NCBI GenBank assembly: GCA_050942955.1
Contig: JBMNOG010000002.1
Coordinates: 32,762-96,761 of the forward strand
Length of the DNA: 64,000 nt
Direction of reading: 5' to 3'
Origin: Patescibacteria group bacterium
GTDB taxonomy: Bacteria > Patescibacteriota > Microgenomatia > UBA1400 > UBA1449
This document shows positions 1-52,016 of this stretch, one piece after another. Within the stretch, counting starts at the first letter, position 1; every line of letters starts with the position of its first letter. Both the position numbers and the translations under genes were made by a program. The notes beneath the pieces are model-generated. The model was not told where the DNA came from. It ran no database searches and saw nothing but the letters and a program-made list of their open reading frames with translations.

Positions 1-7
1 TCCGGAG

Positions 8-1159
8 ATGAAGATTATTGCTCCAGTAAGAGAGTGGAGTATGGGACGAGATGAAGAACTTATCTATGCTAAAAAACACGGCATTCCGGTTAAACAAACG
101 AGTAATTGCCCGTACTCTTGGGATGACAACATGTGGGGTGTAACAGGCGAATCAGGGGAGATTGAAGATCCCAAGCTGGTTCCACCCCTTGATAAAATTC
201 TGCAAGTTTGTAAACCGGTTGAGCAAGCTCTTGATAAACCAGAAACAATTGAACTGGAGTTTGTTAAAGGTCTTCCGATTGCAGTTAACGGCAAACAAAT
301 GAAGTTAACTACGCTTATCGCTGAGCTTAATCAAATAGGCGCCAGACACGGAGTAGGAGTAACAGTCCACATTGAAGACAGGATTGTTGGGTTAAAAGTA
401 AGAGGAGTCTACGAAGCACCGGCAGCAGAAATTATTATTCAAGCCCACCAGAATTTGGAAAAATTCGTTTCAACCAGGATTGAAAATGAGTTCAAAACAC
501 TGGTTGACCAGAAGTTTGCCTACCTTTGTTACGGTGCACTGTGGCATGAACCGACGATGAAACACTTACAAGCATACCTGGACTCGGTCAATGAAAAAGT
601 AAACGGCAAGGTAACGGTTAAACTCTACAAAGGCAGAGCTGATGTAATGGCCATGGAAACGCCGCAGTCTTTATTTGATGAGAAAATGGCTACCTTTATG
701 AAATCAGAGGCATTTAATCAGAATGCTGCTCCGGGTTTTATTGAACTCTGGACATTGCAAATGAAAATGGCCAAACAGGCAATCCCTCAGGTCCTCTTGT
801 CCCTAAGAGATGAGGATAAACCCAAACTCCTGCCTTCAATTAAAAAACTCTATAAAGCTAACAACACCCATTTTTTTGCAACCAAAAACACACATGACTT
901 TCTTAAAAAGAATGGGGTTGAGTCACAGTTTGTCTATAAAGTCAGTGAAGACGGTCAACCAAATATCCATACGCTCTTGCAGCAAAGACGCTTTGACTTA
1001 ATTATTAACACCCCAACCCCGGGGAAAAAGAATACAACACTTCACGATGCTGAAGTAATTAAGCAGTTTGCTATGGATAAAGGCATTAAGCTTATTACTG
1101 AAATTGATGTTGCTGAAGGCATTTTAGAAAAAATGGCAAGTGTAAAAAGGAGATCATAA
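8..1159 (+). CDS. argG: Argininosuccinate synthase (C-terminal two-thirds) fused to a C-terminal MGS-like domain. The gene is 5'-truncated by the window edge; the frame is open up to position 2.
   Basis: Residues 1-265 align along their length with Thermus-type ArgG (PVREWSMGRDEELIYAKKHGIPV, PYSWDDN...GEIEDP, GARHGVGVTVHIEDRIVGLKVRGVYEAPAAEII). Residues ~266-383 match the MGS-like allosteric domain of the CarB C-terminus (LLSLRDEDK, ATKNT, LIINTPTPGKK). Confidence 0.8.
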   Translation: MKIIAPVREWSMGRDEELIYAKKHGIPVKQTSNCPYSWDDNMWGVTGESGEIEDPKLVPPLDKILQVCKPVEQALDKPETIELEFVKGLPIAVNGKQMKLTTLIAELNQIGARHGVGVTVHIEDRIVGLKVRGVYEAPAAEIIIQAHQNLEKFVSTRIENEFKTLVDQKFAYLCYGALWHEPTMKHLQAYLDSVNEKVNGKVTVKLYKGRADVMAMETPQSLFDEKMATFMKSEAFNQNAAPGFIELWTLQMKMAKQAIPQVLLSLRDEDKPKLLPSIKKLYKANNTHFFATKNTHDFLKKNGVESQFVYKVSEDGQPNIHTLLQQRRFDLIINTPTPGKKNTTLHDAEVIKQFAMDKGIKLITEIDVAEGILEKMASVKRRS

Positions 1160-2139
1160 TGGCTAACAGTAACAATAATTGGGATTTGAAGCAGGTTCTC
1201 TTAGAAAAAATCGGCAGTCTAGGCGGCTTTGTTAACTGCCATGCCCATTTTGATAGAGCCTATACGATTAGCCCAGAAACTTTTCCTCTAGCCAATGAGC
1301 ATCTGCATAAAAAATGGAAGTTAGTGGACAAACTTAAACGTACATCTTCCCAGGAGGAGTATGAGAGGAGAATTAGTTTTGCGGTTGAGAAAATGATTGC
1401 CCAGGGAGTCAGGATTGCCTGCAGTTTTATAGATATTGACGAAGCCGTAGGGCTTAAAGCTATTAAAGCTGCTCACAATATCAGAAAAAGATATAAAGAT
1501 AAAATCAGCCTTCTTTTTGCCAGCCAAACGTTAAAAGGAGTCCTCTTAAAAGAAGCGAGAGAGTGGTTTGAAAAGGGTTTGCCCTACATTGATATTATTG
1601 GGGGGTTGCCTAAAACGGATGCTCCTCACCAGGACAAACATATCGATATGCTTTTGCAGTATGCCAAACAAACTGGAAAAAGGGTACATATGCACGTTGA
1701 CCAGGAGAACACAGCTTCTGAGAAAGAAACTGAGCTTCTGGCAAAAAAAGCAGTTAAACACGGGTTGGAAGGCAGAGTTAACGCAGTTCATTGTATCTCC
1801 CTAGCCGCTCACCCCAAAGACTACCGCAGTAAAGTCTACAAACTCTTAACCAAAGCTGGCGTTGGCGTTGTTACCTGTCCTTTGGCGTGGCTTGCTTCCA
1901 AACGGCATGAAGAACTTACACCCACCCATAACTCTATTGCACCTGTTGAAGAAATGGTAGCAGCCGGAGTTACGGTTGGATTAGGAGTTGATAACATCGC
2001 TGATGTCTATATGCCCTTTGCCGACGGAGATATCTGGACAGAGACACGGGCACTGCTTGAAGCCTGCCGCTTTTATGATATAGATAATATAGTCGCTATT
2101 GCTTCAACAAACGGCAGAAAAATACTTGGAGTAAGCTAA
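1159..2139 (+). CDS. Metal-dependent amidohydrolase (TIM-barrel; cytosine-deaminase / type II dihydroorotase-like). Possibly the dihydroorotase of this cluster.
   Basis: HxH metal-ligand motif in NCHAHFDRAYT, a second ligand block HMHVDQE, HCISL, and a GVDNIAD aspartate block. Its start overlaps the argG stop (TAATG) and it ends 1 nt before pyrD. It lines up block-by-block with E. coli type II PyrC (DWHLHLRDG, VHGEV, HITT, GTDSAP). Confidence 0.55.
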   Translation: MANSNNNWDLKQVLLEKIGSLGGFVNCHAHFDRAYTISPETFPLANEHLHKKWKLVDKLKRTSSQEEYERRISFAVEKMIAQGVRIACSFIDIDEAVGLKAIKAAHNIRKRYKDKISLLFASQTLKGVLLKEAREWFEKGLPYIDIIGGLPKTDAPHQDKHIDMLLQYAKQTGKRVHMHVDQENTASEKETELLAKKAVKHGLEGRVNAVHCISLAAHPKDYRSKVYKLLTKAGVGVVTCPLAWLASKRHEELTPTHNSIAPVEEMVAAGVTVGLGVDNIADVYMPFADGDIWTETRALLEACRFYDIDNIVAIASTNGRKILGVS

Positions 2140-2140
2140 T

Positions 2141-3061
2141 ATGCTAAAAAACTCAATTGACCTTTCAACTTCAATTAAAACGCTTAAACTCAAAAACCCG
2201 ACGATCTTAGCTTCAGGCATTCTAGGCATTTACTGTGACTCCTTGCACAGAGTAGCAAAGGGCGGAGCTGGGGCAGTCACCGTTAAATCATTAACAACCG
2301 AACCACGAGCAGGACACAATAACCCTATATTAGTCGAAGTTGAAGGCGGCTTTTTAAATGCCGTTGGCTATGCTAATAAAGGGATTGATAAAGGAGTGGA
2401 AGAGTTTAGAAAGTGGAATGGAGAGATACCAATGATCGGCAGCGTTGTTGCCGGCAACCCGGAAGAGTTTGCCGCCTTAGCGCAAAAGATGTGCCAAGCA
2501 CCAATCCAAGCACTCGAACTGGCACTATCCTGTCCACATACACCCGGGTATGGGTTACTGGCAGGCCAAGGGACACCGGAAGCAACCAAGCAGATTACTA
2601 AAGCGGTCAGAAAGGTAACAAATCTTCCCTTAATCATCAAACTCTCACCGTCAGTTCCTGCAATTGGTGAAATTGTCAAAGCCGCTGAAGCAGCCGGAGC
2701 AGATGCGATTAACATGGGTAATACTCACGGCCCGGGCATGAAGATTGACATCAACCGGGCTGAGCCCATTCTGGACTTTAAGTTCGGAGGAATGAGCGGC
2801 CCGGCAATAAAGCCTATTATGATACGGTCTGTTTTTGATATCTATAAAGCTGTCAAAATACCGATTATTGCTACCGGCGGAATAACCACAGGCGAAGATA
2901 TGATTGAAGCCTTTATGGCCGGAGCCTCAGCCGTTGGTATTGGCACCGCCATTCACTATCGGGGAACTGATGTGTTTGCCAAAGTCTGTCAGGAAGCCTC
3001 TGCCTGGATGCAAAAAAACAAAGTTAAAACCATTAGTAGCCTAGTTGGTCTTGCTCACTGA
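2141..3061 (+). CDS. pyrD: Dihydroorotate dehydrogenase, catalytic subunit (class 1B)
   Basis: NPTILASGILG, NAVGYANKG, GGITTGEDMIEAFMAGASAVGIGTA. Class 1B length (306 aa) and a PyrK partner downstream. Confidence 0.9.
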   Translation: MLKNSIDLSTSIKTLKLKNPTILASGILGIYCDSLHRVAKGGAGAVTVKSLTTEPRAGHNNPILVEVEGGFLNAVGYANKGIDKGVEEFRKWNGEIPMIGSVVAGNPEEFAALAQKMCQAPIQALELALSCPHTPGYGLLAGQGTPEATKQITKAVRKVTNLPLIIKLSPSVPAIGEIVKAAEAAGADAINMGNTHGPGMKIDINRAEPILDFKFGGMSGPAIKPIMIRSVFDIYKAVKIPIIATGGITTGEDMIEAFMAGASAVGIGTAIHYRGTDVFAKVCQEASAWMQKNKVKTISSLVGLAH

Positions 3062-3323
3062 CAAATCTGTTTGAAAATATGTTTTTAAATTCGCTTTTTG
3101 AAGTGGAGCTATCAAGAAATGATTTTATGAATTCTTTAACTTTTAAAGTCAAAAACTGTTTGAGTAAAAATTTCTGTAGACATGCAAAATTTTTACGAGT
3201 TTTTTTTACGGATAGGTATGAAATAGAATCATTTCCTGAAGATCACTTCATTAAGCGAGAATTTTCTTTTGTATTTTTCTTTGTTTGTACAAAGAAAAAT
3301 ACTTATTAATACAGGAAATTATT

Positions 3324-4070
3324 ATGAAAAAATCTTCTATTCAAAATACCTACCAAACCGCTGTTATCACTAAAATCGAACAGGAAACTCCTATTGTTAA
3401 AAGTTTTTACCTGGATACCAAAGTAAAAGCCAAACCCGGGCAGTATGTCATGGTCTGGATTCCGAGAGTTAATGAAAAGCCCTTTGGTGTCGCCTCAACA
3501 AATCCCTTTATGCTTTCGATCGCTAATATCGGCTCATTTACCCAAAAGGTGCATGAACTTAAAGTCGGGGATAAGCTTAGTTGGCGTGGGCCGTACGGCA
3601 CTTCATTTACACTCAAGGGCGAAAAGTTGCTCATCGTTGCCGGTGGGTACGGGGTTGTACCTCTGCACTTACTCGCTTCCCAGGTAGTTCCAGAGAAACG
3701 TAAAAATATCACCGTCATCATCGGCGCTAAAACAGCCAAGCACTTACCCTTTGTGGACAAGTTTAAGGAACTGGGTTGCAAAGTTAAAGTTGCAACAGAT
3801 GACGGTTCTAAGGGTTTTAAGGGCTTCACCACTAAACTAGCTCAAGAACTTCTTGGTAAAGAAACCTTTGACCAAGCCTATACCTGCGGTCCAAACATTA
3901 TGATGGAAACGCTAGCCCAGGTTTGCCATAAGCACGACCTCCCCTGCCAGGTAAGTTTTGAGGCCTTTTTCAAGTGTGGGGGATTAGGACTGTGTGGCGA
4001 GTGCAACTACAAAGGTCATCTCGTTTGCCAGGAAGGGCCTGTTTTTGACTCCAGTTTATTACTAAAGTAA
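3324..4070 (+). CDS. pyrK: Dihydroorotate dehydrogenase electron-transfer subunit (FAD/NAD-binding, 2Fe-2S)
   Basis: FAD-binding fold and a C-terminal Cys cluster (CGGLGLCGECNYKGHLVCQEG). Start chosen at the ATG at 3324, preceded by AGGAAA; the track ORF starts earlier at 3285. Confidence 0.85.
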   Translation: MKKSSIQNTYQTAVITKIEQETPIVKSFYLDTKVKAKPGQYVMVWIPRVNEKPFGVASTNPFMLSIANIGSFTQKVHELKVGDKLSWRGPYGTSFTLKGEKLLIVAGGYGVVPLHLLASQVVPEKRKNITVIIGAKTAKHLPFVDKFKELGCKVKVATDDGSKGFKGFTTKLAQELLGKETFDQAYTCGPNIMMETLAQVCHKHDLPCQVSFEAFFKCGGLGLCGECNYKGHLVCQEGPVFDSSLLLK

Positions 4071-4082
4071 AAAGGAGAGCCT

Positions 4083-4727
4083 ATGGACTACCAAAAGGCG
4101 GTTGCAAAGAGTTTACTTACTATCGGAGCAGTTGGTTTTGCTCCCCAAAACCCTATTACCTTTAAATCAGGCATTAAGTCTCCGGTCTACGTTGATAACC
4201 GTAAGTTTCCCTTTCACCCTTCAGAGTGGAAAACAGTTATCCAGGGTTTTAAGGATCTTATAAAAGAAAAAGGGTTAGAGCTTGACGTTATTGCCGGAGT
4301 TGAAGCTGCCGGTATTCCTCATAGTGCCGCTTTAGGATTTTTTATGGATAAACCCTCTGTGTTTGTCAGAAAAAAAGCCAAAGACCATGGCACAAAGAGT
4401 ATGGTCGAAGGCGGTAAGATTGAAGGTTTGAGAGTTATCCTTATCGAAGATTTAGTTACTACCGGAGGTAGTAGCCTGGCAAGTATCGAATCTCTCAGAA
4501 AAGAAGGAGCAGTTATTTCTGACTGCCTAATAATTGTTAGCTACGGCTTTAGGCAGGCAAAAGAGGCTTTTGCTAAAGCCAACGTAAATCTTCACACCCT
4601 AACCACGTTCCCAATAATCCTTGAAGAAGCACTTGCTATGGGTAAGTTTAGTAAAGAAGAAAAAGAGATTATTGAAGACTGGCTTGCCGAACCCTACGGC
4701 TGGGCGAAACGCCAGGGATTGGAGTAG
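4083..4727 (+). CDS. pyrE: Orotate phosphoribosyltransferase
   Basis: FKSGIKSPVYVDNR; PRPP-binding loop VILIEDLVTTGGS. Confidence 0.9.
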   Translation: MDYQKAVAKSLLTIGAVGFAPQNPITFKSGIKSPVYVDNRKFPFHPSEWKTVIQGFKDLIKEKGLELDVIAGVEAAGIPHSAALGFFMDKPSVFVRKKAKDHGTKSMVEGGKIEGLRVILIEDLVTTGGSSLASIESLRKEGAVISDCLIIVSYGFRQAKEAFAKANVNLHTLTTFPIILEEALAMGKFSKEEKEIIEDWLAEPYGWAKRQGLE

Positions 4728-4728
4728 T

Positions 4729-5532
4729 ATGGATTTTTTCACAAAACTTAACAAGCGTATCGATAAAACCAACTCTCTTCTCTGTGTCGGACTTGACAGC
4801 GATACTGAAAACTTGCCAGCAAAATTCAAGAACTTGGACTTTCCTCAGCTTGAGTTTAATAAGTTCATTATTAGTGAAACTAATCCTTATGTTTGTGCGT
4901 ATAAACCAAACACTGCTTTTTATGAAAGCAGGGGAGAGCAGGGAGTTCACGAGCTAAAGTCAACATGCGATTTTCTGTCCCAAAACTTTCCGGATATCCC
5001 GATTATTTTAGACGCAAAAAGGGGCGATATCGGCAATACCAATAAGGCTTATGCCAAGTATATTTTTGAGTATTTAAAAGTCGATGCCGTCACTCTTCAT
5101 CCATATTTAGGTAAAGAATCTTTGGAAAACTTTTTAGCATACAAAGATAAGGGATTAATAATTCTTTGTAAAACTTCAAATCCCGGAGCTGGTGAGTTCC
5201 AAGACTTGGTGTGCAATGGTAAACCGCTTTGGCAAATAGTTGCTCAAAAGGTTAGCCAGGAATGGAATACAAGCAAAAACTGTGGATTAGTAGTGGGCGC
5301 CACCTATCCGGAAGAACTCAAAGCTGTCAGAAAACTTGTCGAAGATATGACTATCCTTGTTCCGGGGATTGGTAGCCAGGGTGGAGACTTAGAAGCTGTT
5401 TTAAGAGTAGGGCTTAATTCTCAAAAAAGAGGGGCACTTATCAACGCCAGCCGAAGCATTATCTTTGCTCCAAGTCCCGCAACAGAAGCCAAAGTTTTGA
5501 GAAACATAATTAGTAATTTTATTGGAAGCTAA
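4729..5532 (+). CDS. pyrF: Orotidine-5'-phosphate decarboxylase (long type 2)
   Basis: LCVGLDSD, ILDAKRGDIGNT. The ATG at 4729 sits 1 nt after the pyrE TAG; the track ORF starts upstream at 4621, inside pyrE. Confidence 0.85.
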   Translation: MDFFTKLNKRIDKTNSLLCVGLDSDTENLPAKFKNLDFPQLEFNKFIISETNPYVCAYKPNTAFYESRGEQGVHELKSTCDFLSQNFPDIPIILDAKRGDIGNTNKAYAKYIFEYLKVDAVTLHPYLGKESLENFLAYKDKGLIILCKTSNPGAGEFQDLVCNGKPLWQIVAQKVSQEWNTSKNCGLVVGATYPEELKAVRKLVEDMTILVPGIGSQGGDLEAVLRVGLNSQKRGALINASRSIIFAPSPATEAKVLRNIISNFIGS

Positions 5533-5621: not shown

Positions 5622-6518
5622 ATGCAAATTTTCTCAGGCTCAACTAACCCCTCGTTAGCACGCAAAATTGCCAGAAATCTAGATGTTCCAATGGGAAAAG
5701 TTGAGCTTTCCGTTTTTCCTAACAATGAACTCCGTGTTTGGGTAAAAGAGAAAAAAGTCGATAAAGATGTTGCTGTTGTCCAATCATTTGCCGGAGATCC
5801 AAATAAGGCAATTATTGAGTTTTGCCTGTTAATTGACGCTCTAAGAAGATGTGGCGCTCATCATATTACCGCAGTTATTCCCTGGATGGGCTACTGTATT
5901 CAGGATAAAATCTTCAGACCTGGAGAAGCCTTATCCGCTAAGGTAGTTGCCAACATTATCCAATCTGTAAATCCAAACAGAATTATTACAGTCGATTTGC
6001 ATAATGAATCCATTCAAGGTTTCTTTTCAGTGCCTATTACCCACCTTTCGGCAAATCCCTTGTTTATAGATCTTATAAAGCAGAAAAAGGCAGTGGACTG
6101 CATCGTTTCTCCTGATGTGGGAGCCTTAAAAGAAACCACCAGGATCGCCTATGAACTCAACTTACCTATGGTGGTTGTTAATAAGAAACGAGACCTTAAA
6201 ACCGGAGAGGTTTCGATTATAAGTATCAGCGGCGATTGCAAAGATAAGCGAGCTCTTATTATGGATGACTTTATCTCTACCGGAGGAACACTCATTCAAA
6301 CCATCAATTTTCTCAAAAAAAATAAAGCTAAAAAAACAATAGTAGCAGCTACACACCATCTTTTTGTAGAAGGAACTCAGCAAAAACTAGCAAAGAGTTC
6401 TCTTAATGAGCTTTATATAACCGACACTGTAGATATGCCGCAATTAGACACTAAGGTTTCACTTGAAACAAACATTATCAGTGTTTCAGGCATTATTGCC
6501 GAGGCTCTCGCAGAGTAA
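5622..6518 (+). CDS. prs: Ribose-phosphate pyrophosphokinase (PRPP synthetase)
   Basis: MQIFSGSTNPSLARKIA...FPNNELRV; PRPP loop DDFISTGGT. Confidence 0.9.
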   Translation: MQIFSGSTNPSLARKIARNLDVPMGKVELSVFPNNELRVWVKEKKVDKDVAVVQSFAGDPNKAIIEFCLLIDALRRCGAHHITAVIPWMGYCIQDKIFRPGEALSAKVVANIIQSVNPNRIITVDLHNESIQGFFSVPITHLSANPLFIDLIKQKKAVDCIVSPDVGALKETTRIAYELNLPMVVVNKKRDLKTGEVSIISISGDCKDKRALIMDDFISTGGTLIQTINFLKKNKAKKTIVAATHHLFVEGTQQKLAKSSLNELYITDTVDMPQLDTKVSLETNIISVSGIIAEALAE

Positions 6519-6565: not shown

Positions 6566-8257
6566 ATGCATTCATTCTGTCAAAAACTTAAATCTTCAAA
6601 AACTAGATTTATCTTTGTTTCCGGCGGTGTTATTTCCGGTCTTGGTAAGGGCACAACTGCTGCATCATTAGCTGCACTTCTTGAAGGTTGTGGTCTAAAA
6701 GTCTTTCCGATAAAAGTTGACATGTACCTTAATATTGATGCTGGAACAATGAATCCCTTAGAGCATGGGGAAACATTTGTTACTGCAGACGCCTTGGAGT
6801 GCGATCAGGATATAGGAACATATGAACGTTTCTTGCACCGGGATTTAAACCGTCAAAATTATTTTACTGCCGGCCAGATTTACCAATCACTTTTAAACAA
6901 AGAAAGACAGCTTAAGTTCAACGGCGCCTGCGTAGAGGCTTTTCCCCATATACCATTAGAAATCATTGAACATATTAACCGCTTCCCTGATGATACCGAT
7001 ATTGTCATAGTAGAGTATGGCGGAACTGTTGGGGAATATCAAAATGAGGCCTTTTTTGAAGCAGCCCGAATGATGGTTGCTTGTAGCCGTCAGCATGTTT
7101 GTTTTGTCCACATCGGCTATATCCTTCAGCCACCCTCGCTCGGAGAAATGAAGTCTAAACCTCTGCAAATGTCAGTACGGATGTTAAATGAGCTGGGTAT
7201 TTTCCCAGATCTCGTCATTTGCCGCAGTGAAAATCCGATAGACAAACCAAGAATTGCAAAAATTGCCACTGCCGCTGGTCTCTCTGAAAATGAAGTTTTC
7301 TCTTGCCCTAATGTTGATTCGATTTACAAGCTCCCAAAAATATTAAAAGAACAGAATGTTCTTGAACCAATTCTCAGAAAACTACATTTAGAAACCCCAT
7401 TATGCAACATACCCAAATGGGAAAATCTTAGTACAAAACTTGCAAACTTAAAAAATAAAGTCCGCATTTCAGTTGTAGCCAAGTACTACAACAGCGGCCA
7501 GTTTAGTTTAGCAGATTCCTATATTTCAGTTCTTGAAGCCATTAAGCACGCGGCCTGGTCACTTGGTGTAGATCCGGAAATCGCCTGGTTTGACTCAGAA
7601 TCTCTGGAAAAAAACCCTAACAATCTCGAAAAACTTAAAAATTCTGATGCCGTCATTGTTCCGCAAGGCTGGGGGAGCAGGGGATCAGAAGGTAAAATCA
7701 GAGCTATTCAGTTCGCCAGAGAATCAAAAACTCCATATCTTGGACTATGCTTTGGGATGCAGATGGCAACAGTTGAGTTTGGTAGAAATGTAGTCGGTCT
7801 TGATAGAGCCAACTCCGAAGAGGCTGATGCACACACCCCTCATCCCGTAATCCATATTATGAAAGAACAAAAAGAACTTCTTAAAAAACAGCAGTATGGT
7901 GGAACAATTAGATTAGGCGCCTGGCCATGTAAGATTACAAAGGATTCTCTTATCGCTACATTGTATGCCGAAAACGGTTGGCTGCCGGAGAACTCAACAA
8001 TAGACGAAAGACACCGGCACCGCTATGAGTTTAACAATGCATACAGAGAACAGTACAAAGCTAAGGGGATGCACTTTACCGGCCTTTCACCTGACGGGAC
8101 ATTAGTTGAGGCAGTAGAGTTGGATCAAAGTTTGCATCCGTTTTTTATTGGTACACAGTTTCATCCTGAGCTCATTTCCCGCCCATTTACACCTCATCCA
8201 TTATTTATTGGACTTATTAAAGCAGCCTTAGAACACCAGAAAAAGAGAGACAATTAA
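6566..8257 (+). CDS. pyrG: CTP synthase
   Basis: IFVSGGVISGLGKGTTAASL, NIDAGTMNPLEHGETFVT, and a C-terminal GATase domain (LGLCFGMQ, HRHRYEFN). Confidence 0.92.
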   Translation: MHSFCQKLKSSKTRFIFVSGGVISGLGKGTTAASLAALLEGCGLKVFPIKVDMYLNIDAGTMNPLEHGETFVTADALECDQDIGTYERFLHRDLNRQNYFTAGQIYQSLLNKERQLKFNGACVEAFPHIPLEIIEHINRFPDDTDIVIVEYGGTVGEYQNEAFFEAARMMVACSRQHVCFVHIGYILQPPSLGEMKSKPLQMSVRMLNELGIFPDLVICRSENPIDKPRIAKIATAAGLSENEVFSCPNVDSIYKLPKILKEQNVLEPILRKLHLETPLCNIPKWENLSTKLANLKNKVRISVVAKYYNSGQFSLADSYISVLEAIKHAAWSLGVDPEIAWFDSESLEKNPNNLEKLKNSDAVIVPQGWGSRGSEGKIRAIQFARESKTPYLGLCFGMQMATVEFGRNVVGLDRANSEEADAHTPHPVIHIMKEQKELLKKQQYGGTIRLGAWPCKITKDSLIATLYAENGWLPENSTIDERHRHRYEFNNAYREQYKAKGMHFTGLSPDGTLVEAVELDQSLHPFFIGTQFHPELISRPFTPHPLFIGLIKAALEHQKKRDN

Positions 8258-8349: not shown

Positions 8350-8820
8350 TTGTCTATGGGTCTTTTTATTAAACATCAAAATACTGAGTTTAAAGTCGGC
8401 GATACTGTTAAGGTTTACCAACGCCTAGTTGAAGGTGAAAAGGAGCGTATCCAAACTTTTGAGGGTGTCGTCATTAAAATCCACGGCAATACTGGCGAAA
8501 AAACTTTTACTGTAAGAAAAATTTCAGGCGGCATTGGCGTTGAGAGAATTTATCCTATTGATTCACCATTTATCCAAAAAATTGAGGTTGTCAAACAAGG
8601 CCATGTACGTAGAGCTAAACTCTACTATCTTCGCGACCGCACTGGTAGATTAGCTCTGAAAGTGAAAACCAAGTATGATACCAGACAAACTCAGGAAGAA
8701 ACTGAACCAGTCGAAGAACCAAACTCAGAAACAGAACCTGAGGAAACCAGATCAGAACCAGCAAAAGAAGAAACTGGGAAGGCTGGGGGAGCAGAAAGTA
8801 AAGAAACTGCTACTAAGTAA
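8350..8820 (+). CDS. rplS: Ribosomal protein L19 with a ~45-aa acidic low-complexity C-terminal extension
   Basis: [60 protein letters not shown]. The tail is Glu/Thr/Pro-rich. Confidence 0.85.
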
Positions 8821-9118
8821 TGGCTGGATATTTATCTGTCAAAACTTCCATACCCGCTTTGGGGAAATTGACTTAGTTTTTCTTGATAGTGATAAGATTT
8901 TGTCATTTATTGAAGTTAAAACTAGATCTTCAGAGAAGTTTGGGTTTCCGGAAGAAGCAGTCTCAAAGAATAAACTCAGGCACCTGCAAAAAGCGGCAGA
9001 AATATTTCTTACAAAAAATCCCCAGTACCAAAACTGCCAGCTCCGTATTGATGTTGCAGCAATTGAGCTATGCAAAGACAGAGAAATGATGCGCTACTAC
9101 AAAAACGTAACCGCTTGA
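8675..9118 (+). CDS. yraN: YraN/UPF0102-family (PD-(D/E)xK) endonuclease-like protein. The start is uncertain; the only ATG lies 146 nt inside the rplS tail.
   Basis: [17 protein letters not shown]...[10 protein letters not shown]...FIEVKTR matches the UPF0102 core. Confidence 0.7.
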
Positions 9119-20796: not shown

Positions 20797-20970
20797 CGTC
20801 CTGCCTATTATTAAGGTAAAAATATCCTGCTAAACGAACCAATTTCTATTACTTTATTCTTACTGGTTTTTCATTTTCCTGTAAAAGTAATGCAATAAAC
20901 TCTGACGAAGTGAAGTGCCCCTCATGCATGTTTGAGGGAAACGCCAAATAGAGAGGAGGTGAGTAGAAAA

Positions 20971-22206
20971 ATGAAAAAACTTTTTAGAAAGCTGGCTGCT
21001 GCCGCAGCACTAAGCTCCATGCTACTTCAAGTCTTTGCCTCTATTGCTTTAGCTGAAACTATTGAAATTTCCGGTAACGGCGCTGATTCTGAGAACGATG
21101 CGATGGTAAATACTACCAAACAAACAACTGTCGTCCAAAACAACACTGCTGAGATCTTTAACGATATTGAAGCTGAGGCTGAGACAGGCGAAAACGAGGC
21201 TAATGACAATACCGGGGGTGATACGCTTATCATGACTGGTAATGCTACGACATCAGTAGATGTTGCAACAAGAGTTAATCTCAATGCGATAGAAGACAGA
21301 GTTGAGACACAGAGAGACGACACCAGTATTCTGATTTCCGGTAACGGAGCAGATTCTGACAATGACGTTGATCTGAATTCTCTCGAAGAAACAGAAATTT
21401 TCCAGGATAACTTTGCTTACATTGAAAACGATATTGAAGCTGAGGCTGAGACAGGCGAAAACGAGGCCAACCGTAATACTGGCGGCGAAACCGCTGTTAT
21501 TACCGGCCATGCCACTACCGAAGTCGAAGTTTCTAATGTAGCTAACGCCAACCTGGTTGATCTCAGAGGTCCAACAAACGGAACAGTCCCAACCTACGAT
21601 ATCAGGATTGTCGGCAATGGTGCTAATAGCAGGACAAATGTCGACGTTAACCGGCAAAAATTCCTGACAATTGTTCAGGATAACTTTGCAGATATCTTCA
21701 ACTATGTTGAGGTTGAAGCAGAGACCGGTGAAAACGAGGCCAATGATAATACAGGCGGGGACGTCATGATTGACACAGGTATGGCTCAAGCTTCTGCAAC
21801 TGTAGAAAACTGGGCAAACCTGAACGTGGCTACTACCAATGGATGGCTGCCGGAGGTTCTGGCAAAAATTTATGGGAATGGAGCTTTATCCCGAAACGAT
21901 GTTGATGTTTGCTTCTTAGATGAAGTCGCCGTTTTCCAGGGAGATGACGGAGAGAGTGGAAACGTTCTCTTCCTTGAGAATGATGTTGATAACGAACCCG
22001 AAAGCGGTGATAACGAGGCAAACAGAAATACGTATGGCGAAGGTGATCCACTCGTGATTACCGGCCATGCTCTATCCGATGTCCTAGTAAGGAACACGGC
22101 TAACGCCAATTACTATGGCACCCGTCCTGCTATGGACTGGTTTGATAATTTTGAATTGAACTTTTCGTTCAATTTAGGAGGTCTCGTAGGTAGGTTACTT
22201 AGGTAA
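20971..22206 (+). CDS. Secreted protein of four tandem ~85-90-aa repeats (novel repeat family)
   Basis: Signal peptide KLAAAAALSSMLLQVFASIALA. Repeats share GNGA(D/N)S...(V/F)Q(D/N)N(F/T)A.I.N.(I/V)E(A/V)EAETGENEAN(D/R)NTGG....TG.A...V...AN(A/L)N. A 35-nt exact DNA repeat occurs at 21165 and 21426. RBS GAGAGGAGG. Confidence 0.7.
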   Translation: MKKLFRKLAAAAALSSMLLQVFASIALAETIEISGNGADSENDAMVNTTKQTTVVQNNTAEIFNDIEAEAETGENEANDNTGGDTLIMTGNATTSVDVATRVNLNAIEDRVETQRDDTSILISGNGADSDNDVDLNSLEETEIFQDNFAYIENDIEAEAETGENEANRNTGGETAVITGHATTEVEVSNVANANLVDLRGPTNGTVPTYDIRIVGNGANSRTNVDVNRQKFLTIVQDNFADIFNYVEVEAETGENEANDNTGGDVMIDTGMAQASATVENWANLNVATTNGWLPEVLAKIYGNGALSRNDVDVCFLDEVAVFQGDDGESGNVLFLENDVDNEPESGDNEANRNTYGEGDPLVITGHALSDVLVRNTANANYYGTRPAMDWFDNFELNFSFNLGGLVGRLLR

Positions 22207-22222
22207 CACATTGTAGTCAGAT

Positions 22223-22259
22223 GGGGAGTTTCCTGGTCGCACTTCAACAGAAACTCCCC
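22223..22259 (+). other. Perfect 10-bp inverted repeat (GGGGAGTTTC...GAAACTCCCC) with a 17-nt loop, between the two surface-protein genes
   Basis: Read directly. It is followed by an A-rich tract rather than a U-tract, so it is not a classical terminator. Confidence 0.4.
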
Positions 22260-22293
22260 GTCACTACACATAAAAAAACAAAAAGAAAGATGT

Positions 22294-50564: not shown

Positions 50565-52016
50565 ATGAATAATTTCCTCAAGACATATTATGAAGTATAC
50601 AAGAAGGGAAATCTGTTCAATGCTAGTAAGCGACTAGTAAAAAATCCTTTTAAAGAAAAAGGTAGGAGAAGTAACTCTGTTGCTATTGCAGGCGGTGCCT
50701 TAGGAGACGAAGGTAAGGGCAGGATTACTGATGAGTTGACAGCAAGCTTCTTAAAGAAGTTTAATGAAGTTGTTCACTATAGAGATAATGGTGGTGCTAA
50801 TGCCGGCCACACTGTAGAAATTGGTGATGTAAGGATTGCCTTGCATCAACTTGGAGCCGGCGTTTTACAAAAAGGGTGCGTCGTTATTTTAGGCAGAGAA
50901 ATGGTTCTTCACCCTGAAGATTTGGTAACAGAAATTGAAGATGTAAAGAAAGCTCTTAATACTTCTAAGCTACCTTCAAGACTGCTTATTGATGAAATGG
51001 CATGCTTATCTTTAGATACTCATCGGGCATTTGAAGTAGCACTAAAGCAAAAATCTACCGGTAGCAAAGGGGCAACAGGTAGAGGAATTTCACCTGCATA
51101 TGCTGATGTAATTTTTAGACATGCGTTGCGAATGAGAGACTTAGTAGCTCAGGACTGGAAAAAAAGAGTTACTGCACATTACGAACTGTATCAAAGCTGG
51201 ATTGCCGGAATGGGGCTTACACTTTCAGACATTGAAGTGGCAAGACTTAGTGGTTCGCCAGTTAAGGTCGGTTCCGGCAAAGATATGCTTAAGAGACTGA
51301 CCAAGGCCCGAAAGATTTTAAAGCCGTTTGTAACTTCGGCACACAGTATTTTAGAAAACTACTGGAGAAGCAACACTCCAATGGTTTTTGAAAAAGCCCA
51401 AGCATTGGGACTGGATACTCGCTGGGGAATCTATCCGGATATTACTGCCTCAAACTGTGGTTTTGACGGAATCTTGTCTTCGACAGAAGGCATAGTTAAT
51501 CCTGATGAAATTGCAGTCAAAGCTGCAACTATAAAAGCAACGTATTCTTCAAGTGTCGGCAGCAGGGTTTTACCAACATTAATTAAAACAACATTAGCTG
51601 AAAGAATCCGAGAAGATGCTCATGAGTACGGAGCAACTACCAAAAGACCTAGGGATATCGCTTACATTGACCTGCCAATGTTGTCCTACTTATTTAAGGT
51701 AGGAAAAGTCGAATACCTCACCGTAACTCACCTTGATATCAGTTATAAAGATACGCCAATTAAAGTTTGCGTTGACTATACTCTCAATGGGAAAAGTGTA
51801 GGCTACCGGCCGGACCAGGAGTATTTAAACAAAGTAAAGCCGGTGTATGTTAAGCTCCCACCCTGGGACGGAACAAAACTGGCAAGCGTAAAAAACCTTA
51901 AAGACTTGCCTTACGAGGCTCTGAAGTATCTGACATTTATAAGTAAATGCCTTAACACTAAACTTTTCATGGTAACTGTAGGACCAAAAAGAGATCAGAC
52001 AATTAAGTGTTTCTAA
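50565..52016 (+). CDS. purA: Adenylosuccinate synthetase homolog: divergent, with a ~35-aa N-terminal extension and insertions
   Basis: GGALGDEGKGRITD (P-loop with the catalytic Asp), GGANAGHTV, ATGRGISPAY, GATTKRPRDIAYIDL. This is collinear with E. coli PurA, except that W is replaced by L in QWGDEGKGK and the Arg cluster is GATTKRPRD rather than GATTGRRRR. Confidence 0.75.
   Translation: MNNFLKTYYEVYKKGNLFNASKRLVKNPFKEKGRRSNSVAIAGGALGDEGKGRITDELTASFLKKFNEVVHYRDNGGANAGHTVEIGDVRIALHQLGAGVLQKGCVVILGREMVLHPEDLVTEIEDVKKALNTSKLPSRLLIDEMACLSLDTHRAFEVALKQKSTGSKGATGRGISPAYADVIFRHALRMRDLVAQDWKKRVTAHYELYQSWIAGMGLTLSDIEVARLSGSPVKVGSGKDMLKRLTKARKILKPFVTSAHSILENYWRSNTPMVFEKAQALGLDTRWGIYPDITASNCGFDGILSSTEGIVNPDEIAVKAATIKATYSSSVGSRVLPTLIKTTLAERIREDAHEYGATTKRPRDIAYIDLPMLSYLFKVGKVEYLTVTHLDISYKDTPIKVCVDYTLNGKSVGYRPDQEYLNKVKPVYVKLPPWDGTKLASVKNLKDLPYEALKYLTFISKCLNTKLFMVTVGPKRDQTIKCF

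What the first reader, a model, noticed from the sequence alone, without database searches (positions are those of the whole stretch)
8..1159. Argininosuccinate synthase fused to a CarB-type MGS-like allosteric domain, heading a pyrimidine operon
The ArgG body ends at about residue 265, but the ORF continues for ~118 residues that match the MGS-like domain of the carbamoyl-phosphate synthetase large subunit (LLSLRDEDK / ATKNT / INTPTPGKK). In CarB this domain binds ornithine, IMP and UMP. I do not know this fusion from characterised ArgG enzymes. It suggests ArgG activity is gated by an arginine/pyrimidine-pathway metabolite. That fits the gene's position, translationally coupled (TAATG) to an amidohydrolase and pyrD-pyrK-pyrE-pyrF.
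Basis: partly seen in the sequence, partly recalled or inferred. Interest (0 to 1): 0.55.

Follow-up and report, generated by a model that had tools for sequence, protein, structure and literature searches.

The report
Argininosuccinate synthase–sensor fusion feeding pyrimidine synthesis
A real and widely conserved fusion of argininosuccinate synthase to a carbamoyl-phosphate-synthetase-type nucleotide-sensing domain always travels with a deaminase-like hydrolase instead of the usual lyase and sits at the head of pyrimidine operons, which suggests an undescribed route from citrulline and aspartate into pyrimidines.

Summary
ORF 8..1159 is open to the window edge. It is the last 385 residues of a 538-aa protein: a canonical argininosuccinate synthase (ArgG) body plus a C-terminal Pfam MGS-like domain (E 1e-12) that aligns with the CarB allosteric domain.

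The fusion is one monophyletic family. It occurs in at least 41 species-level genomes, mostly Patescibacteria/CPR, and also in Silvanigrellales, including cultured Fluviispira. The residues that bind the UMP/IMP phosphate in CarB (K954, T974, T977, K993) are conserved.

The main result concerns the gene partner.
- Plain ArgG sits next to argH in 27 of 38 loci.
- ArgG-MGS sits next to an uncharacterised amidohydrolase (NCBIfam PRK06886, AtzC/cytosine-deaminase-like) in 36 of 41 loci. This pair is usually followed by pyrD-pyrE-pyrF.
- The amidohydrolase is itself found fused to dihydroorotate dehydrogenase (DHODH), to DHODH plus an OPRT-like domain, and to MGS.

My best reading, at about 0.5 confidence, is a bypass of CPSase/ATCase/DHOase. 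ArgG-MGS would make argininosuccinate under nucleotide feedback. The amidohydrolase would then release ornithine to give carbamoyl-aspartate or dihydroorotate.

This is unproven. One operon also carries carAB-pyrB-pyrC, and two carry argH. I could not test genome-wide absence of the canonical genes, and no enzyme has been assayed.

The parts
2..778 (+). C-terminal 259 residues of the ArgG catalytic body (residues 154-412 of the 538-aa protein). The N-terminal ATP-binding part is cut off by the window edge.
   Evidence: Pfam Arginosuc_syn_C at 4.9e-67 and NCBIfam ArgG models. Full-length P0001 scores 517 bits on PRK00509 (cutoff 334) and 469 bits on TIGR00032 (cutoff 268). It matches solved ArgG structures at E 1e-106 (6xnq) and 2e-105 (1j1z).
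779..826 (+). Linker between the ArgG C-terminal helix and the MGS-like domain.
   Evidence: Poorly conserved columns in the family alignment. It lies between the end of the ArgG match (residue 259) and the start of the Pfam MGS match (residue 276).
827..1156 (+). MGS-like domain of the CarB allosteric type.
   Evidence: Pfam PF02142 at 1.1e-12, above the gathering score. A family profile hits the human CPS1 allosteric domain (9e-19) and E. coli CarB 942-1039 (1.2e-9). The AF2 model shows alternating strand/helix elements (five strands listed) for residues 416-533, block-mean pLDDT mostly 85-94. All 7 differences from strain L001 in this part are synonymous by my by-hand codon-phase reading.
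818..1009 (+). Putative effector (phosphate) site. Codons: K426 (818-820), T447 (881-883), T450 (890-892), K466 (938-940), N489 (1007-1009).
   Evidence: These align with CarB K954, T974, T977, K993 and N1015. K426, T447 and K466 are invariant and T450 and N489 are at least 90% conserved in 50 family members. Thr977 and Lys993 are crucial for UMP inhibition and binding in CarB (PMC6245113).
1147..1161 (+). AAGGAG ribosome-binding site followed by the TAATG stop/start overlap that couples ArgG-MGS to the amidohydrolase.
   Evidence: Read directly from the sequence.
1159..2139 (+). Partner amidohydrolase (326 aa) of the uncharacterised PRK06886 family. It resembles AtzC and cytosine deaminase and is not a dihydroorotase.
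   Evidence: NCBIfam NF005365 at 442.6 bits (cutoff 340); cytosine-deaminase models score far below their cutoffs; no DHOase model matches. The nearest solved sequences are AtzC (5e-21) and CodA. The AF2 model has pLDDT 89.7, and Foldseek gives TM 0.85 to cytosine/5-methylcytosine deaminase and 0.81 to AtzC, with no DHOase in the top 50. It is adjacent to ArgG-MGS in 36 of 41 species.
2141..3061 (+). pyrD, dihydroorotate dehydrogenase, class 1B catalytic subunit.
   Evidence: Pfam DHO_dh at 1.9e-70.
3285..4070 (+). pyrK, electron-transfer subunit of DHODH B.
   Evidence: Pfam NAD_binding_1 and DHODB_Fe-S_bind.
4083..4727 (+). pyrE, orotate phosphoribosyltransferase.
   Evidence: Pfam Pribosyltran, plus its position in the operon.
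4729..5532 (+). pyrF, OMP decarboxylase. The likely ATG start is at 4729 inside ORF 4621..5532.
   Evidence: Pfam OMPdecase at 3.8e-39, matching from residue 53 of the long ORF.
5622..6518 (+). prs, PRPP synthetase.
   Evidence: Pfam Pribosyltran_N, Pribosyltran and Pribosyl_synth.
6566..8257 (+). pyrG, CTP synthase.
   Evidence: Pfam CTP_synth_N at 1.3e-89 plus GATase.

Best explanation
The gene encodes a genuine argininosuccinate synthase. A CarB-type allosteric (MGS-like) domain has been added to its C-terminus, most likely as a sensor for a nucleoside monophosphate such as UMP.

In this family the enzyme does not feed ArgH. It works with the co-translated PRK06886-type amidohydrolase as the entry module of pyrimidine synthesis. 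The proposed steps are:
1. Citrulline is supplied, in several lineages by a DDAH/arginine-deiminase-like enzyme encoded in the same operon.
2. ArgG condenses citrulline with aspartate, using ATP, to give argininosuccinate.
3. The amidohydrolase attacks the guanidino carbon and expels ornithine as the leaving amine. AtzC does the same with isopropylamine.
4. The product is carbamoyl-aspartate or, after ring closure, dihydroorotate.
5. PyrD, PyrE and PyrF convert this to UMP.

ArgG-MGS would then be the committed, ATP-spending step, and it carries the feedback domain that CarB carries in the canonical pathway.

What is shown:
- the fusion is real and conserved;
- the ArgG body is canonical;
- the CarB effector-site residues are conserved;
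- ArgH is swapped for the amidohydrolase as the gene partner;
- the pair sits in pyrimidine operons;
- the amidohydrolase occurs fused to DHODH and to MGS.

What is inferred:
- the substrate and products of the amidohydrolase;
- the identity of the effector;
- that this module replaces CPSase/ATCase/DHOase.
For: 1. The ArgG body is canonical.
- It passes the curated ArgG equivalog cutoffs.
- It matches solved ArgG structures at E 1e-106 and 2e-105.
- All ATP, aspartate and citrulline ligand positions of human ASS1 are invariant in 50 members, except S92 to P and S189 to T.
- It is 58-66% identical to plain ArgGs that pair with ArgH.

2. The gene partner is swapped.
- Among 41 species-level loci with ArgG-MGS, the amidohydrolase is present in 38 and adjacent in 36. 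PyrD is present in 30, PyrE in 23, PyrF in 13, ArgH in 5, CarAB in 2 and PyrB/PyrC in 1.
- Among 38 loci with plain ArgG, ArgH is adjacent in 27. The amidohydrolase appears in 1, on a contig that ends inside ArgG.
- The pair occurs in both gene orders and often overlaps.

3. There are Rosetta-stone fusions.
- Amidohydrolase::DHODH fusions: P0241-P0247, L020, L094.
- An amidohydrolase::DHODH::OPRT-like fusion: P0246/L093. In L093 the cluster reads UPRTase, ArgG-MGS, this fusion, OMP decarboxylase.
- In the same DHODH clade, a canonical DHOase occupies the same N-terminal position (P0251).
- Sources.

4. The same MGS clade is also fused to the amidohydrolase (P0293, P0384, P0347) and to DHODH (P0283, L092). 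It therefore marks enzymes of one pathway. All of these copies keep the CarB K954/T974/T977/K993 equivalents. NAG-binding human CPS1 does not.

5. The amidohydrolase is of the deaminase type.
- The HxH/H/H/D metal ligands are kept.
- Its nearest relatives are AtzC, which releases an alkylamine from a ring guanidine-like carbon, and CodA.
- It is not DHOase-like.
- Sources.

6. A citrulline-forming-type enzyme (DDAH/ADI family) lies between or just before the pair in 5 of the 41 species-representative loci (Levyibacteria L020 and Saccharibacteria-type L047-L051) and also in L094 and in the window's own organism (L001/L002).

7. In Saprospira the amidohydrolase follows argH. This is a second link to argininosuccinate.

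8. By my own atom count, argininosuccinate = dihydroorotate + ornithine balances without net water.
Against: - No enzyme of this family has been assayed. The substrate of the amidohydrolase is inferred only from context and from a relative that is about 22% identical.
- One operon (L046) carries ArgG-MGS and the amidohydrolase together with carA, carB, pyrB and a pyrC-like gene, followed by pyrD and pyrF. L015 has carAB next door. At least there, the module is not simply a replacement.
- Two operons (L018, L021) contain a bona fide argH.
- I could not test whether carAB, pyrB, pyrC or argH are absent elsewhere in these genomes.
- A mononuclear deaminase-type enzyme is not an obvious catalyst for ring closure. 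In L091 an AsnA-like ATP-dependent module sits between the amidohydrolase and DHODH, which hints at an extra step.
- The position of CodA's catalytic Glu217 is an invariant Gln.
- In the sister strain L001/L002 the amidohydrolase carries an in-frame TAA at codon 40 while ArgG-MGS is intact.
- In L006, L042 and L045 the fusion has no adjacent amidohydrolase.
Confidence: 0.5

Rival explanations
1. This is an ordinary arginine-pathway ArgG that happens to have gained a regulatory domain. It makes argininosuccinate for ArgH encoded elsewhere. The MGS domain balances arginine against pyrimidine demand for aspartate and carbamoyl units. The neighbouring amidohydrolase is an unrelated pyrimidine-salvage deaminase (cytosine, 5-methylcytosine or isocytosine type) that naturally sits in pyr operons.
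For: - The ArgG body is canonical.
- True argH lies inside two of the operons (L018, L021).
- The amidohydrolase's best structural matches are cytosine and 5-methylcytosine deaminases.
- L046 keeps the whole canonical early pathway.
- A UPRTase sits next to the cluster in L093.
Against: - It does not explain why the amidohydrolase is adjacent in 36 of 41 loci to MGS-bearing ArgG, and in only 1 of 38 to plain ArgG (L054, a contig that ends inside ArgG, so its MGS status is unknown). It also does not explain why ArgH adjacency drops from 27 of 38 to 2 of 41.
- The cytosine-deaminase models score far below their cutoffs, and CodA's catalytic Glu217 is Gln.
- A salvage deaminase fused N-terminally to DHODH, or to DHODH plus an OPRT-like domain, in pathway order is hard to rationalise.
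Confidence: 0.2
2. The amidohydrolase acts before ArgG and supplies citrulline. It would do so either as an amidohydrolase-superfamily arginine deiminase or as an N-acyl-citrulline hydrolase. ArgG-MGS then feeds ArgH or another enzyme.
For: - Converting a guanidine to a urea with release of NH3 is typical chemistry for the CodA, guanine-deaminase and AtzC subgroup.
- In Saprospira, a Bacteroidota member, the gene follows argH. From general knowledge, this phylum uses N-succinyl intermediates for arginine synthesis.
Against: - A dedicated DDAH/ADI-family citrulline-forming gene coexists with the amidohydrolase in the same operon in at least seven loci, which makes a second citrulline supplier redundant.
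- Arginine to citrulline to arginine would be a futile cycle.
- Fusion to DHODH is left unexplained.
- No other arg genes (argB, argC, argD, argF') are in these neighbourhoods.
Confidence: 0.1
3. The amidohydrolase is a metabolite-repair enzyme. It re-opens the cyclic anhydrides that argininosuccinate forms spontaneously.
For: - It is linked to both ArgG (in CPR) and ArgH (in Saprospira).
- Argininosuccinate is known to cyclise spontaneously (general knowledge; I found no paper in the library).
Against: - Plain ArgG-ArgH pairs (27 of 38 loci) would need the same repair, yet none of them has the amidohydrolase alongside; its single occurrence among plain loci is L054, which has no ArgH hit.
- Ring-opening amidohydrolases are typically binuclear enzymes of the DHOase/hydantoinase type, and this one is CodA/AtzC-like.
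- Fusion to DHODH and to an OPRT-like domain is not explained.
Confidence: 0.07
4. The module is a fumarate generator for a fumarate-dependent dihydroorotate dehydrogenase. ArgG plus a lyase (ArgH, AspA or PurB) would convert aspartate to fumarate, and the amidohydrolase would recycle arginine to citrulline.
For: - ArgH (L018, L021), an AspA-like lyase (L041) and PurB (L012, L016, L019, L037) occur near some clusters.
- Many clusters have a divergent DHODH without PyrK.
- From general knowledge, CPR bacteria lack quinones.
Against: - A lyase is absent from most clusters. ArgH is found in 5 of 41.
- The window's own operon has PyrK, which makes the DHODH NAD-linked.
- This would spend ATP to do what aspartase does for free.
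- It is the amidohydrolase, not a lyase, that is fused to DHODH.
Confidence: 0.05

Closest known systems
Canonical argininosuccinate synthase (ArgG/ASS1, EC 6.3.4.5; e.g. T. thermophilus 1J1Z, human 2NZ2)
   Same: - The catalytic body is about 400 residues.
- It has the SGGLDTS ATP-pyrophosphatase motif and conserved aspartate and citrulline ligand residues.
- It passes the curated ArgG HMM cutoffs.
- Sources.
   Different: - It carries an extra C-terminal domain of about 125 residues, which no ArgG chain in the solved-structure search shows (solved ArgG chains are 400-455 residues and none matched the MGS part).
- Its conserved gene partner is an amidohydrolase rather than ArgH.
- It sits in pyrimidine operons rather than arginine operons.
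Allosteric (MGS-like) domain of carbamoyl-phosphate synthetase large subunit CarB
   Same: - It matches Pfam PF02142.
- It is C-terminal on an ATP-spending, pathway-committing enzyme.
- It has alternating strand/helix elements (five strands) in the AF2 model, compatible with CarB's five-stranded parallel sheet.
- The equivalents of CarB K954, T974, T977 and K993 in the UMP/IMP phosphate site are conserved.
- Sources: and PMC6245113.
   Different: - It is attached to an unrelated catalytic fold (an N-type ATP pyrophosphatase instead of an ATP-grasp).
- The CarB ornithine site lies at the interface with the carbamoyl-phosphate domain, and that domain is absent here.
- The effector is unknown.
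- In the representative-library search CarB-length proteins (about 1,040-1,080 aa) first appear around rank 50; the higher hits whose domains I checked carry MGS on the amidohydrolase, DHODH, an AsnA-like ligase, a GNAT or split CarB pieces, and many others are short fragments I did not classify.
AtzC (N-isopropylammelide isopropylaminohydrolase) and cytosine deaminase CodA: the nearest relatives of the partner amidohydrolase
   Same: - It has the amidohydrolase TIM barrel with the HxH, H, H and D ligands of a mononuclear metal site.
- Hydrolytic displacement of an amine from an amidine or guanidine-type carbon is the expected chemistry.
- AtzC is a precedent for an alkylamine leaving group.
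- Sources.
   Different: - Identity is only about 19-22%.
- It lacks the beta-sandwich domain (326 aa against 400-430 aa).
- CodA's Glu217 is Gln.
- It belongs to its own curated but unnamed family, PRK06886.
- It has many invariant Arg and Lys residues, which suggests an anionic substrate.
- Sources.
Canonical early pyrimidine pathway (CarAB, PyrB, PyrC) and fusions of these enzymes such as DHOase::DHODH
   Same: - It holds the same operon position, directly before pyrD.
- It has the same logic: an ATP-spending first enzyme carries an MGS-type feedback domain.
- The amidohydrolase occupies the N-terminal slot on DHODH that a canonical DHOase occupies in P0251.
- Sources.
   Different: - It uses different protein families and a different proposed carbamoyl donor: the ureido group of citrulline, passed through argininosuccinate, instead of carbamoyl phosphate.
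- Ornithine would be released as a by-product.

Membership tests
Argininosuccinate synthase (ArgG) | Curated equivalog HMMs score above their cutoffs. | tested here: met
   Full-length P0001 scores 516.9 bits on PRK00509 (cutoff 334) and 468.7 bits on TIGR00032 (cutoff 268.2).
Argininosuccinate synthase (ArgG) | SGGLDTS ATP-pyrophosphatase motif and the ATP, aspartate and citrulline ligand residues. | tested here: met
   Human ASS1 positions 11-18, Y87, T119, N123, D124, R127, S180, E270 and Y282 are invariant in 50 family members. S189 is T and S92 is P. The list of ligand positions is from my own recollection of UniProt P00966. The N-terminal motif lies outside the window and was read from P0001.
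Argininosuccinate synthase (ArgG) | Works with argininosuccinate lyase, seen as the argG-argH gene pair. | tested here: not met
   ArgH is adjacent in 2 of 41 fusion loci, against 27 of 38 plain-ArgG loci. There is no argH in the 64-kb window. Presence elsewhere in these genomes was not testable.
Argininosuccinate synthase (ArgG) | Catalyses citrulline + aspartate + ATP to argininosuccinate. | not testable with these tools
   This needs an enzyme assay.
CarB-type allosteric MGS-like domain (PF02142) | Profile match above the curated threshold. | tested here: met
   Pfam MGS at 48.3 bits against 24.1. A family profile hits CPS1 2yvq at 9e-19 and E. coli CarB at 1.2e-9.
CarB-type allosteric MGS-like domain (PF02142) | Five-stranded parallel beta/alpha fold. 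| tested here: met
   The AF2 model for residues 416-533 shows alternating strand and helix elements (five strands listed), block-mean pLDDT mostly 85-94. This is a prediction only; strand direction and superposition on CarB were not examined.
CarB-type allosteric MGS-like domain (PF02142) | Nucleotide (UMP/IMP) phosphate-site residues K954, T974, T977 and K993. | tested here: met
   K426, T447 and K466 are invariant and T450 is at least 90% conserved. The role of T977 and K993 is described in PMC6245113.
CarB-type allosteric MGS-like domain (PF02142) | Ornithine site at the interface with the carbamoyl-phosphate domain (Thr1042 and partner residues). | tested here: inconclusive
   The partner domain is absent from ArgG. 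The E. coli alignment ends at residue 1039.
CarB-type allosteric MGS-like domain (PF02142) | Binds an effector and changes catalytic activity. | not testable with these tools
   This needs binding and kinetic assays.
Cytosine deaminase CodA (for the partner amidohydrolase) | Curated model cutoff, and the catalytic Glu217 in the HxxE motif. | tested here: not met
   The best cytosine-deaminase model scores 115 bits against a cutoff of 403. The motif is an invariant H-V-D-Q.
Dihydroorotase PyrC (for the partner amidohydrolase) | Match to DHOase models or fold. | tested here: not met
   No DHOase model appears among the NCBIfam hits. No DHOase is in the Foldseek top 50.
NCBIfam NF005365 / PRK06886 'hypothetical protein' (for the partner amidohydrolase) | Equivalog model scores above its cutoff. 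| tested here: met
   It scores 442.6 bits against a cutoff of 340. The family has no assigned function.
AtzC N-isopropylammelide isopropylaminohydrolase (for the partner amidohydrolase) | Metal ligands, and a close enough relationship to imply the same substrate. | tested here: inconclusive
   AtzC is the best solved sequence hit (5e-21) and the ligands align. Identity is only about 22% and the substrate-pocket residues were not compared.

The most novel reading that the evidence does not exclude
Many Patescibacteria, and also Silvanigrellales including cultivable Fluviispira, make pyrimidines by an undescribed route. In it, argininosuccinate takes the place of carbamoyl phosphate plus aspartate as the source of the ring.

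The route would run as follows:
- Arginine or citrulline is condensed with aspartate by ArgG-MGS to give argininosuccinate.
- The PRK06886 amidohydrolase releases ornithine and yields carbamoyl-aspartate or dihydroorotate.
- PyrD, PyrE and PyrF then complete the path to UMP.

A portable MGS-like nucleotide sensor would provide feedback on whichever enzyme heads the operon. This would bypass CPSase, ATCase and perhaps DHOase. It would also assign a function to a large family now labelled 'hypothetical', and it would link arginine scavenging directly to nucleotide synthesis in ultra-small bacteria.
Probability: 0.45. Interest if true: 0.9.

Novelty: new variant of a known kind. Interest (0 to 1): 0.72.

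Why it matters
The early steps of pyrimidine synthesis (CPSase, ATCase, DHOase) are among the most conserved in biology.

This finding offers a compact gene set: ArgG-MGS, the amidohydrolase, DHODH, OPRT and OMP decarboxylase. In some genomes these collapse into a run of three adjacent genes. If the proposed route is real, it would be an alternative entry that draws on scavenged arginine or citrulline. That bears on how CPR bacteria with minimal genomes obtain nucleotides.

Even without the pathway, three points stand:
- The CarB allosteric domain behaves as a mobile regulatory module. It is found on ArgG, DHODH, an amidohydrolase, an AsnA-like ligase and a GNAT.
- Hundreds of database entries named only "argininosuccinate synthase" have a different context from true arginine-pathway ArgG.
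- Every part of the hypothesis can be tested directly, and Fluviispira multicolorata is cultivable.

Tried and rejected
Literature. Nine full-text searches found no description of the fusion or of such a pathway. They combined argininosuccinate or ArgG with MGS, pyrimidine, dihydroorotate, Patescibacteria, CPR, Roizmanbacteria, Saccharibacteria, cyclic anhydride and CP066689. The one promising hit, GapMind 2026, concerns other amidohydrolases.

Searches that failed or were unavailable:
- The search for related loci with the MGS-only alignment failed because no stretch was conserved enough. I repeated it with the ArgG C-terminal half plus MGS.
- I looked up the window's PyrD to try to extend the contig upstream. 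It is not on record.

Test I could not run. No tool returns whole genomes, so genome-wide absence of carAB, pyrB, pyrC and argH could not be tested. Only neighbourhoods of up to 10 kb on each side and the 64-kb window were searched, by tblastn.

Leads that went nowhere:
- Small unknown ORFs near the pair are not recurrent and have no family hits. These include the 137-aa ORF in Roizmanbacteria, the 141-aa ORF in L041 and the 387-aa ORF in L091.
- The window has no Rfam family above gathering score and no tRNA, so no known riboswitch or leader family was detected around the operon.

Ideas considered and rejected:
- An assembly or frameshift artefact. The family is large and monophyletic, and the strain differences are synonymous.
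- The amidohydrolase as an ordinary DHOase or CodA. Models, fold and the catalytic residue all argue against it.
- Urea instead of citrulline as the ArgG substrate. The whole citrulline pocket is invariant, and citrulline-forming genes are co-operonic.
Full report
**1.

ORF 8..1159 is real, and its frame stays open back to base 2, so the window begins inside the gene. P0001 (538 aa) matches it at 100% BLASTP identity over the full 385-aa window fragment, and it is encoded on two short metagenomic contigs, L001 and L002.

Pfam finds the ArgG C-terminal domain (4.9e-67) and an MGS-like domain (1.1e-12, above the gathering score) at residues 276-366 of the window fragment. NCBIfam aligns the tail with CarB positions 934-1049 of 1058.

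Full-length P0001 passes the curated ArgG equivalog cutoffs. It scores 517 bits against 334 and 469 bits against 268. It matches solved ArgG structures at E 1e-106 (6xnq) and 2e-105 (T. thermophilus 1j1z).

Against the roughly 98%-identical strain L001/L002, my by-hand codon-phase reading of the 23 listed differences in the ORF gives 22 synonymous, including all 7 in the MGS part (differences listed). The extension is therefore translated and under purifying selection.

The TAATG overlap and an AAGGAG site couple the gene to the next ORF. Downstream lie an amidohydrolase, pyrD, pyrK, pyrE, pyrF, prs and pyrG.

Upstream, in L001/L002, a DDAH/arginine-deiminase-family gene ends 24 bp before ArgG-MGS. 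The gene is therefore probably not the first in the operon.

**2. The fusion is a large, single-origin family**

- All 120 best protein clusters have the ArgG+MGS architecture at about 540 aa. Where they are named, the name is only "argininosuccinate synthase".
- A scan of one genome per GTDB species returned 41 loci with the full fusion.
- These come from Microgenomates, Roizmanbacteria, Levyibacteria, Magasanikbacteria, Pace- and Parcubacteria and Saccharibacteria. They also come from Silvanigrellales and Oligoflexia, including cultured Fluviispira multicolorata.
- In an NJ tree of ArgG bodies, all fusion proteins form one clade. This clade is nested among plain CPR/DPANN ArgGs.
- MAGs labelled Gammaproteobacteria, Pseudomonadales, Chlamydiae or Dormiibacterota interleave with Patescibacteria in that tree. 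Their labels are doubtful.

**3. The ArgG body is canonical**

The ligand positions of human ASS1 were mapped onto 50 family members. Positions 11-18, Y87, T119, N123, D124, R127, S180, E270 and Y282 are invariant. S189 is Thr and S92 is Pro. The list of positions is from my own recollection of UniProt P00966.

Plain ArgGs that sit next to ArgH are 58-66% identical to the C-terminal half of this body. I therefore take citrulline + aspartate + ATP to argininosuccinate as the chemistry. This is inferred, not assayed.

**4. The MGS domain keeps the CarB nucleotide site**

A profile of 21 family MGS domains hits the human CPS1 allosteric domain (9e-19) and E. coli CarB 942-1039 (1.2e-9).

In that alignment, CarB S948, K954, T974, T977, K993 and N1015 correspond to S420, K426, T447, T450, K466 and N489 of P0001. 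K426, T447 and K466 are invariant. T450 and N489 are at least 90% conserved.

Thr977 and Lys993 are the residues reported as crucial for UMP inhibition and UMP binding (PMC6245113). Human CPS1 binds N-acetylglutamate, and it differs at the K954 and K993 positions.

AF2 predicts alternating strand/helix elements (five strands) for residues 416-533, with block-mean pLDDT mostly 85-94.

A phosphate-bearing effector, most simply UMP or IMP, is the best inference. The ornithine site of CarB cannot be transferred, because it lies at an interface with a domain that ArgG lacks.

**5. The gene partner is swapped**

This is the key comparative result, from a tblastn census of the species-representative loci (ORF-based view).

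| | ArgG-MGS loci (n=41) | Plain ArgG loci (n=38) |
|---|---|---|
| Amidohydrolase present | 38 | 1 (contig ends inside ArgG) |
| Amidohydrolase adjacent | 36 | 1 (same locus) |
| ArgH adjacent | 2 | 27 |
| ArgH anywhere in the locus | 5 | 27 |
| PyrD | 30 | 0 |
| PyrE | 23 | 0 |
| PyrF | 13 | 0 |
| CarA/CarB | 2 | CarA 1, CarB 0 |
| PyrB / PyrC | 1 / 1 | 9 weak hits to the PyrB seed (23-30% identity; my guess is ornithine carbamoyltransferases) / 0 |
| DDAH-like | 5, all adjacent | 0 |

The pair occurs in both orders and often overlaps. The typical cluster is ArgG-MGS, amidohydrolase, PyrD, PyrE, PyrF. The PyrD is either class 1B with PyrK or a divergent form of 360-400 aa.

The 64-kb window contains no carA, carB, pyrB, pyrC or argH.

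**6. What the amidohydrolase is**

- It belongs to NCBIfam PRK06886, labelled "hypothetical protein" (442.6 bits, cutoff 340). Cytosine-deaminase models score far below their cutoffs, and no DHOase model matches.
- Its nearest solved sequences are AtzC, the N-isopropylammelide isopropylaminohydrolase (5e-21), followed by CodA.
- A confident AF2 model (pLDDT 89.7) superposes on cytosine and 5-methylcytosine deaminase (TM 0.85) and on AtzC (TM 0.81). No dihydroorotase is in the top 50.
- The HxH, H, H and D metal ligands are invariant. CodA's catalytic Glu217 is an invariant Gln. Many Arg and Lys residues are invariant.
- It is therefore a deaminase-type enzyme with probably a mononuclear metal site. 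It has an unknown and probably anionic substrate.
- AtzC gives a precedent for expelling an alkylamine from a guanidine-like carbon.
- Outside CPR the family occurs in Melainabacteria and in Saprospira and Aureispira. In Saprospira it directly follows a bona fide argH.

**7. Rosetta-stone fusions**

- In Levyibacteria (L020) the operon is ArgG-MGS, DDAH-like, a 737-aa amidohydrolase::DHODH fusion, PyrF, PyrE.
- Searching with that fusion found seven full-length clusters of amidohydrolase::DHODH, P0241-P0247. L094 has the same operon.
- In L093 the cluster reads UPRTase, ArgG-MGS, then a 923-aa protein, then OMP decarboxylase. The C-terminal 223 residues of the 923-aa protein resemble PyrE (29% identity over 150 residues, E 3e-8, with a PRPP motif). 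It is thus amidohydrolase::DHODH::OPRT-like in pathway order.
- In the same DHODH clade, a canonical DHOase occupies the same N-terminal slot (P0251).
- The MGS domain also occurs on other enzymes:
  - MGS::amidohydrolase (P0293, which scores 402.6 bits on PRK06886; P0384; P0395) and amidohydrolase::MGS (P0347);
  - MGS::DHODH (P0283; in L092 it is followed by PyrF, PyrE, Prs, PyrG and L19 in a gene order close to the window's, where pyrE precedes pyrF);
  - an AsnRS/AsnA-like core fused to MGS, with or without DHODH;
  - a GNAT.
  - Sources.
- In an exhaustive profile search, CarB-length proteins (about 1,040-1,080 aa) first appear around rank 50. The higher hits whose domains I checked carry these other architectures; many others are short fragments that I did not classify.

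**8. Proposed mechanism**

Shown:
- ArgG-MGS and the amidohydrolase form a conserved, co-translated pair.
- The pair sits where the early pyrimidine enzymes would sit.
- The amidohydrolase is physically fused to DHODH in several lineages.
- The MGS sensor marks enzymes of this one pathway.

Inferred:
- ArgG-MGS makes argininosuccinate.
- The amidohydrolase hydrolyses its guanidino carbon and releases ornithine.
- The product is carbamoyl-aspartate or dihydroorotate. This could happen directly, through the six-membered anhydride, which is an N2-substituted dihydro-isocytosine-6-carboxylate.
- Argininosuccinate = dihydroorotate + ornithine balances without net water.
- Where a DDAH/ADI-like gene is present, arginine would be the ultimate donor.
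- The MGS domain would give UMP-type feedback on the ATP-spending committed step, as it does in CarB.
- The ATP cost (ATP to AMP + PPi) equals that of CPSase.

**9. Complications**

- L046 has ArgG-MGS and the amidohydrolase, then carA, carB (with its own MGS), a true pyrB (345 bits against 237), a pyrC-like gene, pyrD and pyrF, all in one operon. L015 has carAB next door. In these genomes the module is an addition, not a replacement.
- L018 and L021 have a genuine argH inside the operon. L041 has an AspA-like lyase.
- L091 inserts an AsnA-like::MGS::DHODH protein after the amidohydrolase. This could mean that ring closure is a separate, ATP-driven step and that the amidohydrolase yields open carbamoyl-aspartate.
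- In strain L001/L002 the amidohydrolase has an in-frame TAA at codon 40.
- I could not establish whether carAB, pyrB, pyrC and argH are absent genome-wide.

**10. Comparison with known systems, and novelty**

As a protein, this is a member of the ArgG family. Sequence models, motifs and ligand residues all meet the definition. It differs in carrying an added CarB-type allosteric domain and in having a different functional partner.

Nine literature searches found no description of the fusion, of the PRK06886 family's function, or of an argininosuccinate-based route to pyrimidines.

I rate what is demonstrated as a new variant of a known kind. The pathway reading would be categorically new if it is confirmed. 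I give it roughly even odds.

Noticed in passing
L091 8001-10502 (P0269); also P0261-P0266, P0294-P0297, P0350, P0437: Some proteins fuse a class-II aaRS-like core to an MGS domain, and usually also to DHODH and sometimes a PRTase. The core resembles AsnRS or asparagine synthetase A and has no anticodon domain. In L091 such a protein sits between the amidohydrolase and PyrF. It may be an ATP-dependent dihydroorotate-forming ligase. Its function is unknown.
   Followed up: partly
L092 8001-9506 (P0288); P0283-P0289; P0293, P0384, P0395, P0347; P0333; P0349: The same MGS-like clade occurs as MGS::DHODH, MGS::amidohydrolase, amidohydrolase::MGS, GNAT::MGS and a protein with three MGS domains. The CarB allosteric domain appears to be a mobile regulatory module in arginine and pyrimidine metabolism.
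   Followed up: partly
L001 2112-3092 and L002 (window equivalent 1159-2139, position 1276): In two independent assemblies of a roughly 98%-identical strain, the amidohydrolase has an in-frame TAA at codon 40 (window G1276 is T there). The stop lies inside a patch of clustered substitutions (1271-1350). ArgG-MGS is intact. This could be a pseudogene, a strain polymorphism or a recombination tract.
   Followed up: partly
L046 5858-14052: One operon holds both the ArgG-MGS/amidohydrolase pair and the complete canonical set: carA, carB, pyrB, a pyrC-like gene, pyrD and pyrF. It may be a transitional or dual-source state.
   Followed up: partly
L003 7294-9195; L030; L037; P0249, P0252: These lineages have many other pyrimidine-enzyme fusions: DHODH::PRTase (633 aa), PyrD::PyrK (584 aa), PyrK::PyrE (761 aa) and proteins combining DHODH, OMP decarboxylase and PRTase domains (about 850 aa).
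   Followed up: no
L014, L015, L025, L027, L028, L030, L033, L034, L041, L043, L046 (labelled Gammaproteobacteria or Pseudomonadales); L044 (Chlamydiae); L057 (Dormiibacterota): In the ArgG tree these MAGs interleave with Patescibacteria and share their gene order. Their NCBI taxonomic labels look unreliable.
   Followed up: partly
L009 8592-10963 (Saprospira sp. CCB-QB6, CP116808.1): In a free-living Bacteroidota member, the PRK06886 amidohydrolase directly follows argH and has no pyr genes nearby. Type III-like CRISPR-associated genes (Cas6, Cas3-like) lie just downstream.
   Followed up: no
window 8350-8820 and 8675-9118: The L19-like ORF has a long acidic, low-complexity C-terminal tail. 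It overlaps the start of the next ORF, a YraN/UPF0102-like endonuclease-type sequence, by about 145 bases. Neither protein was checked against a profile library.
   Followed up: no
window 20932-24570: Two large adjacent ORFs (424 aa and 758 aa) have no Pfam match at E<=1e-5.
   Followed up: no
window 50565-52016: purA (adenylosuccinate synthetase) is present in the window. It is another aspartate-consuming ligase that needs a lyase afterwards. No purB or argH lies within the 64 kb.
   Followed up: no
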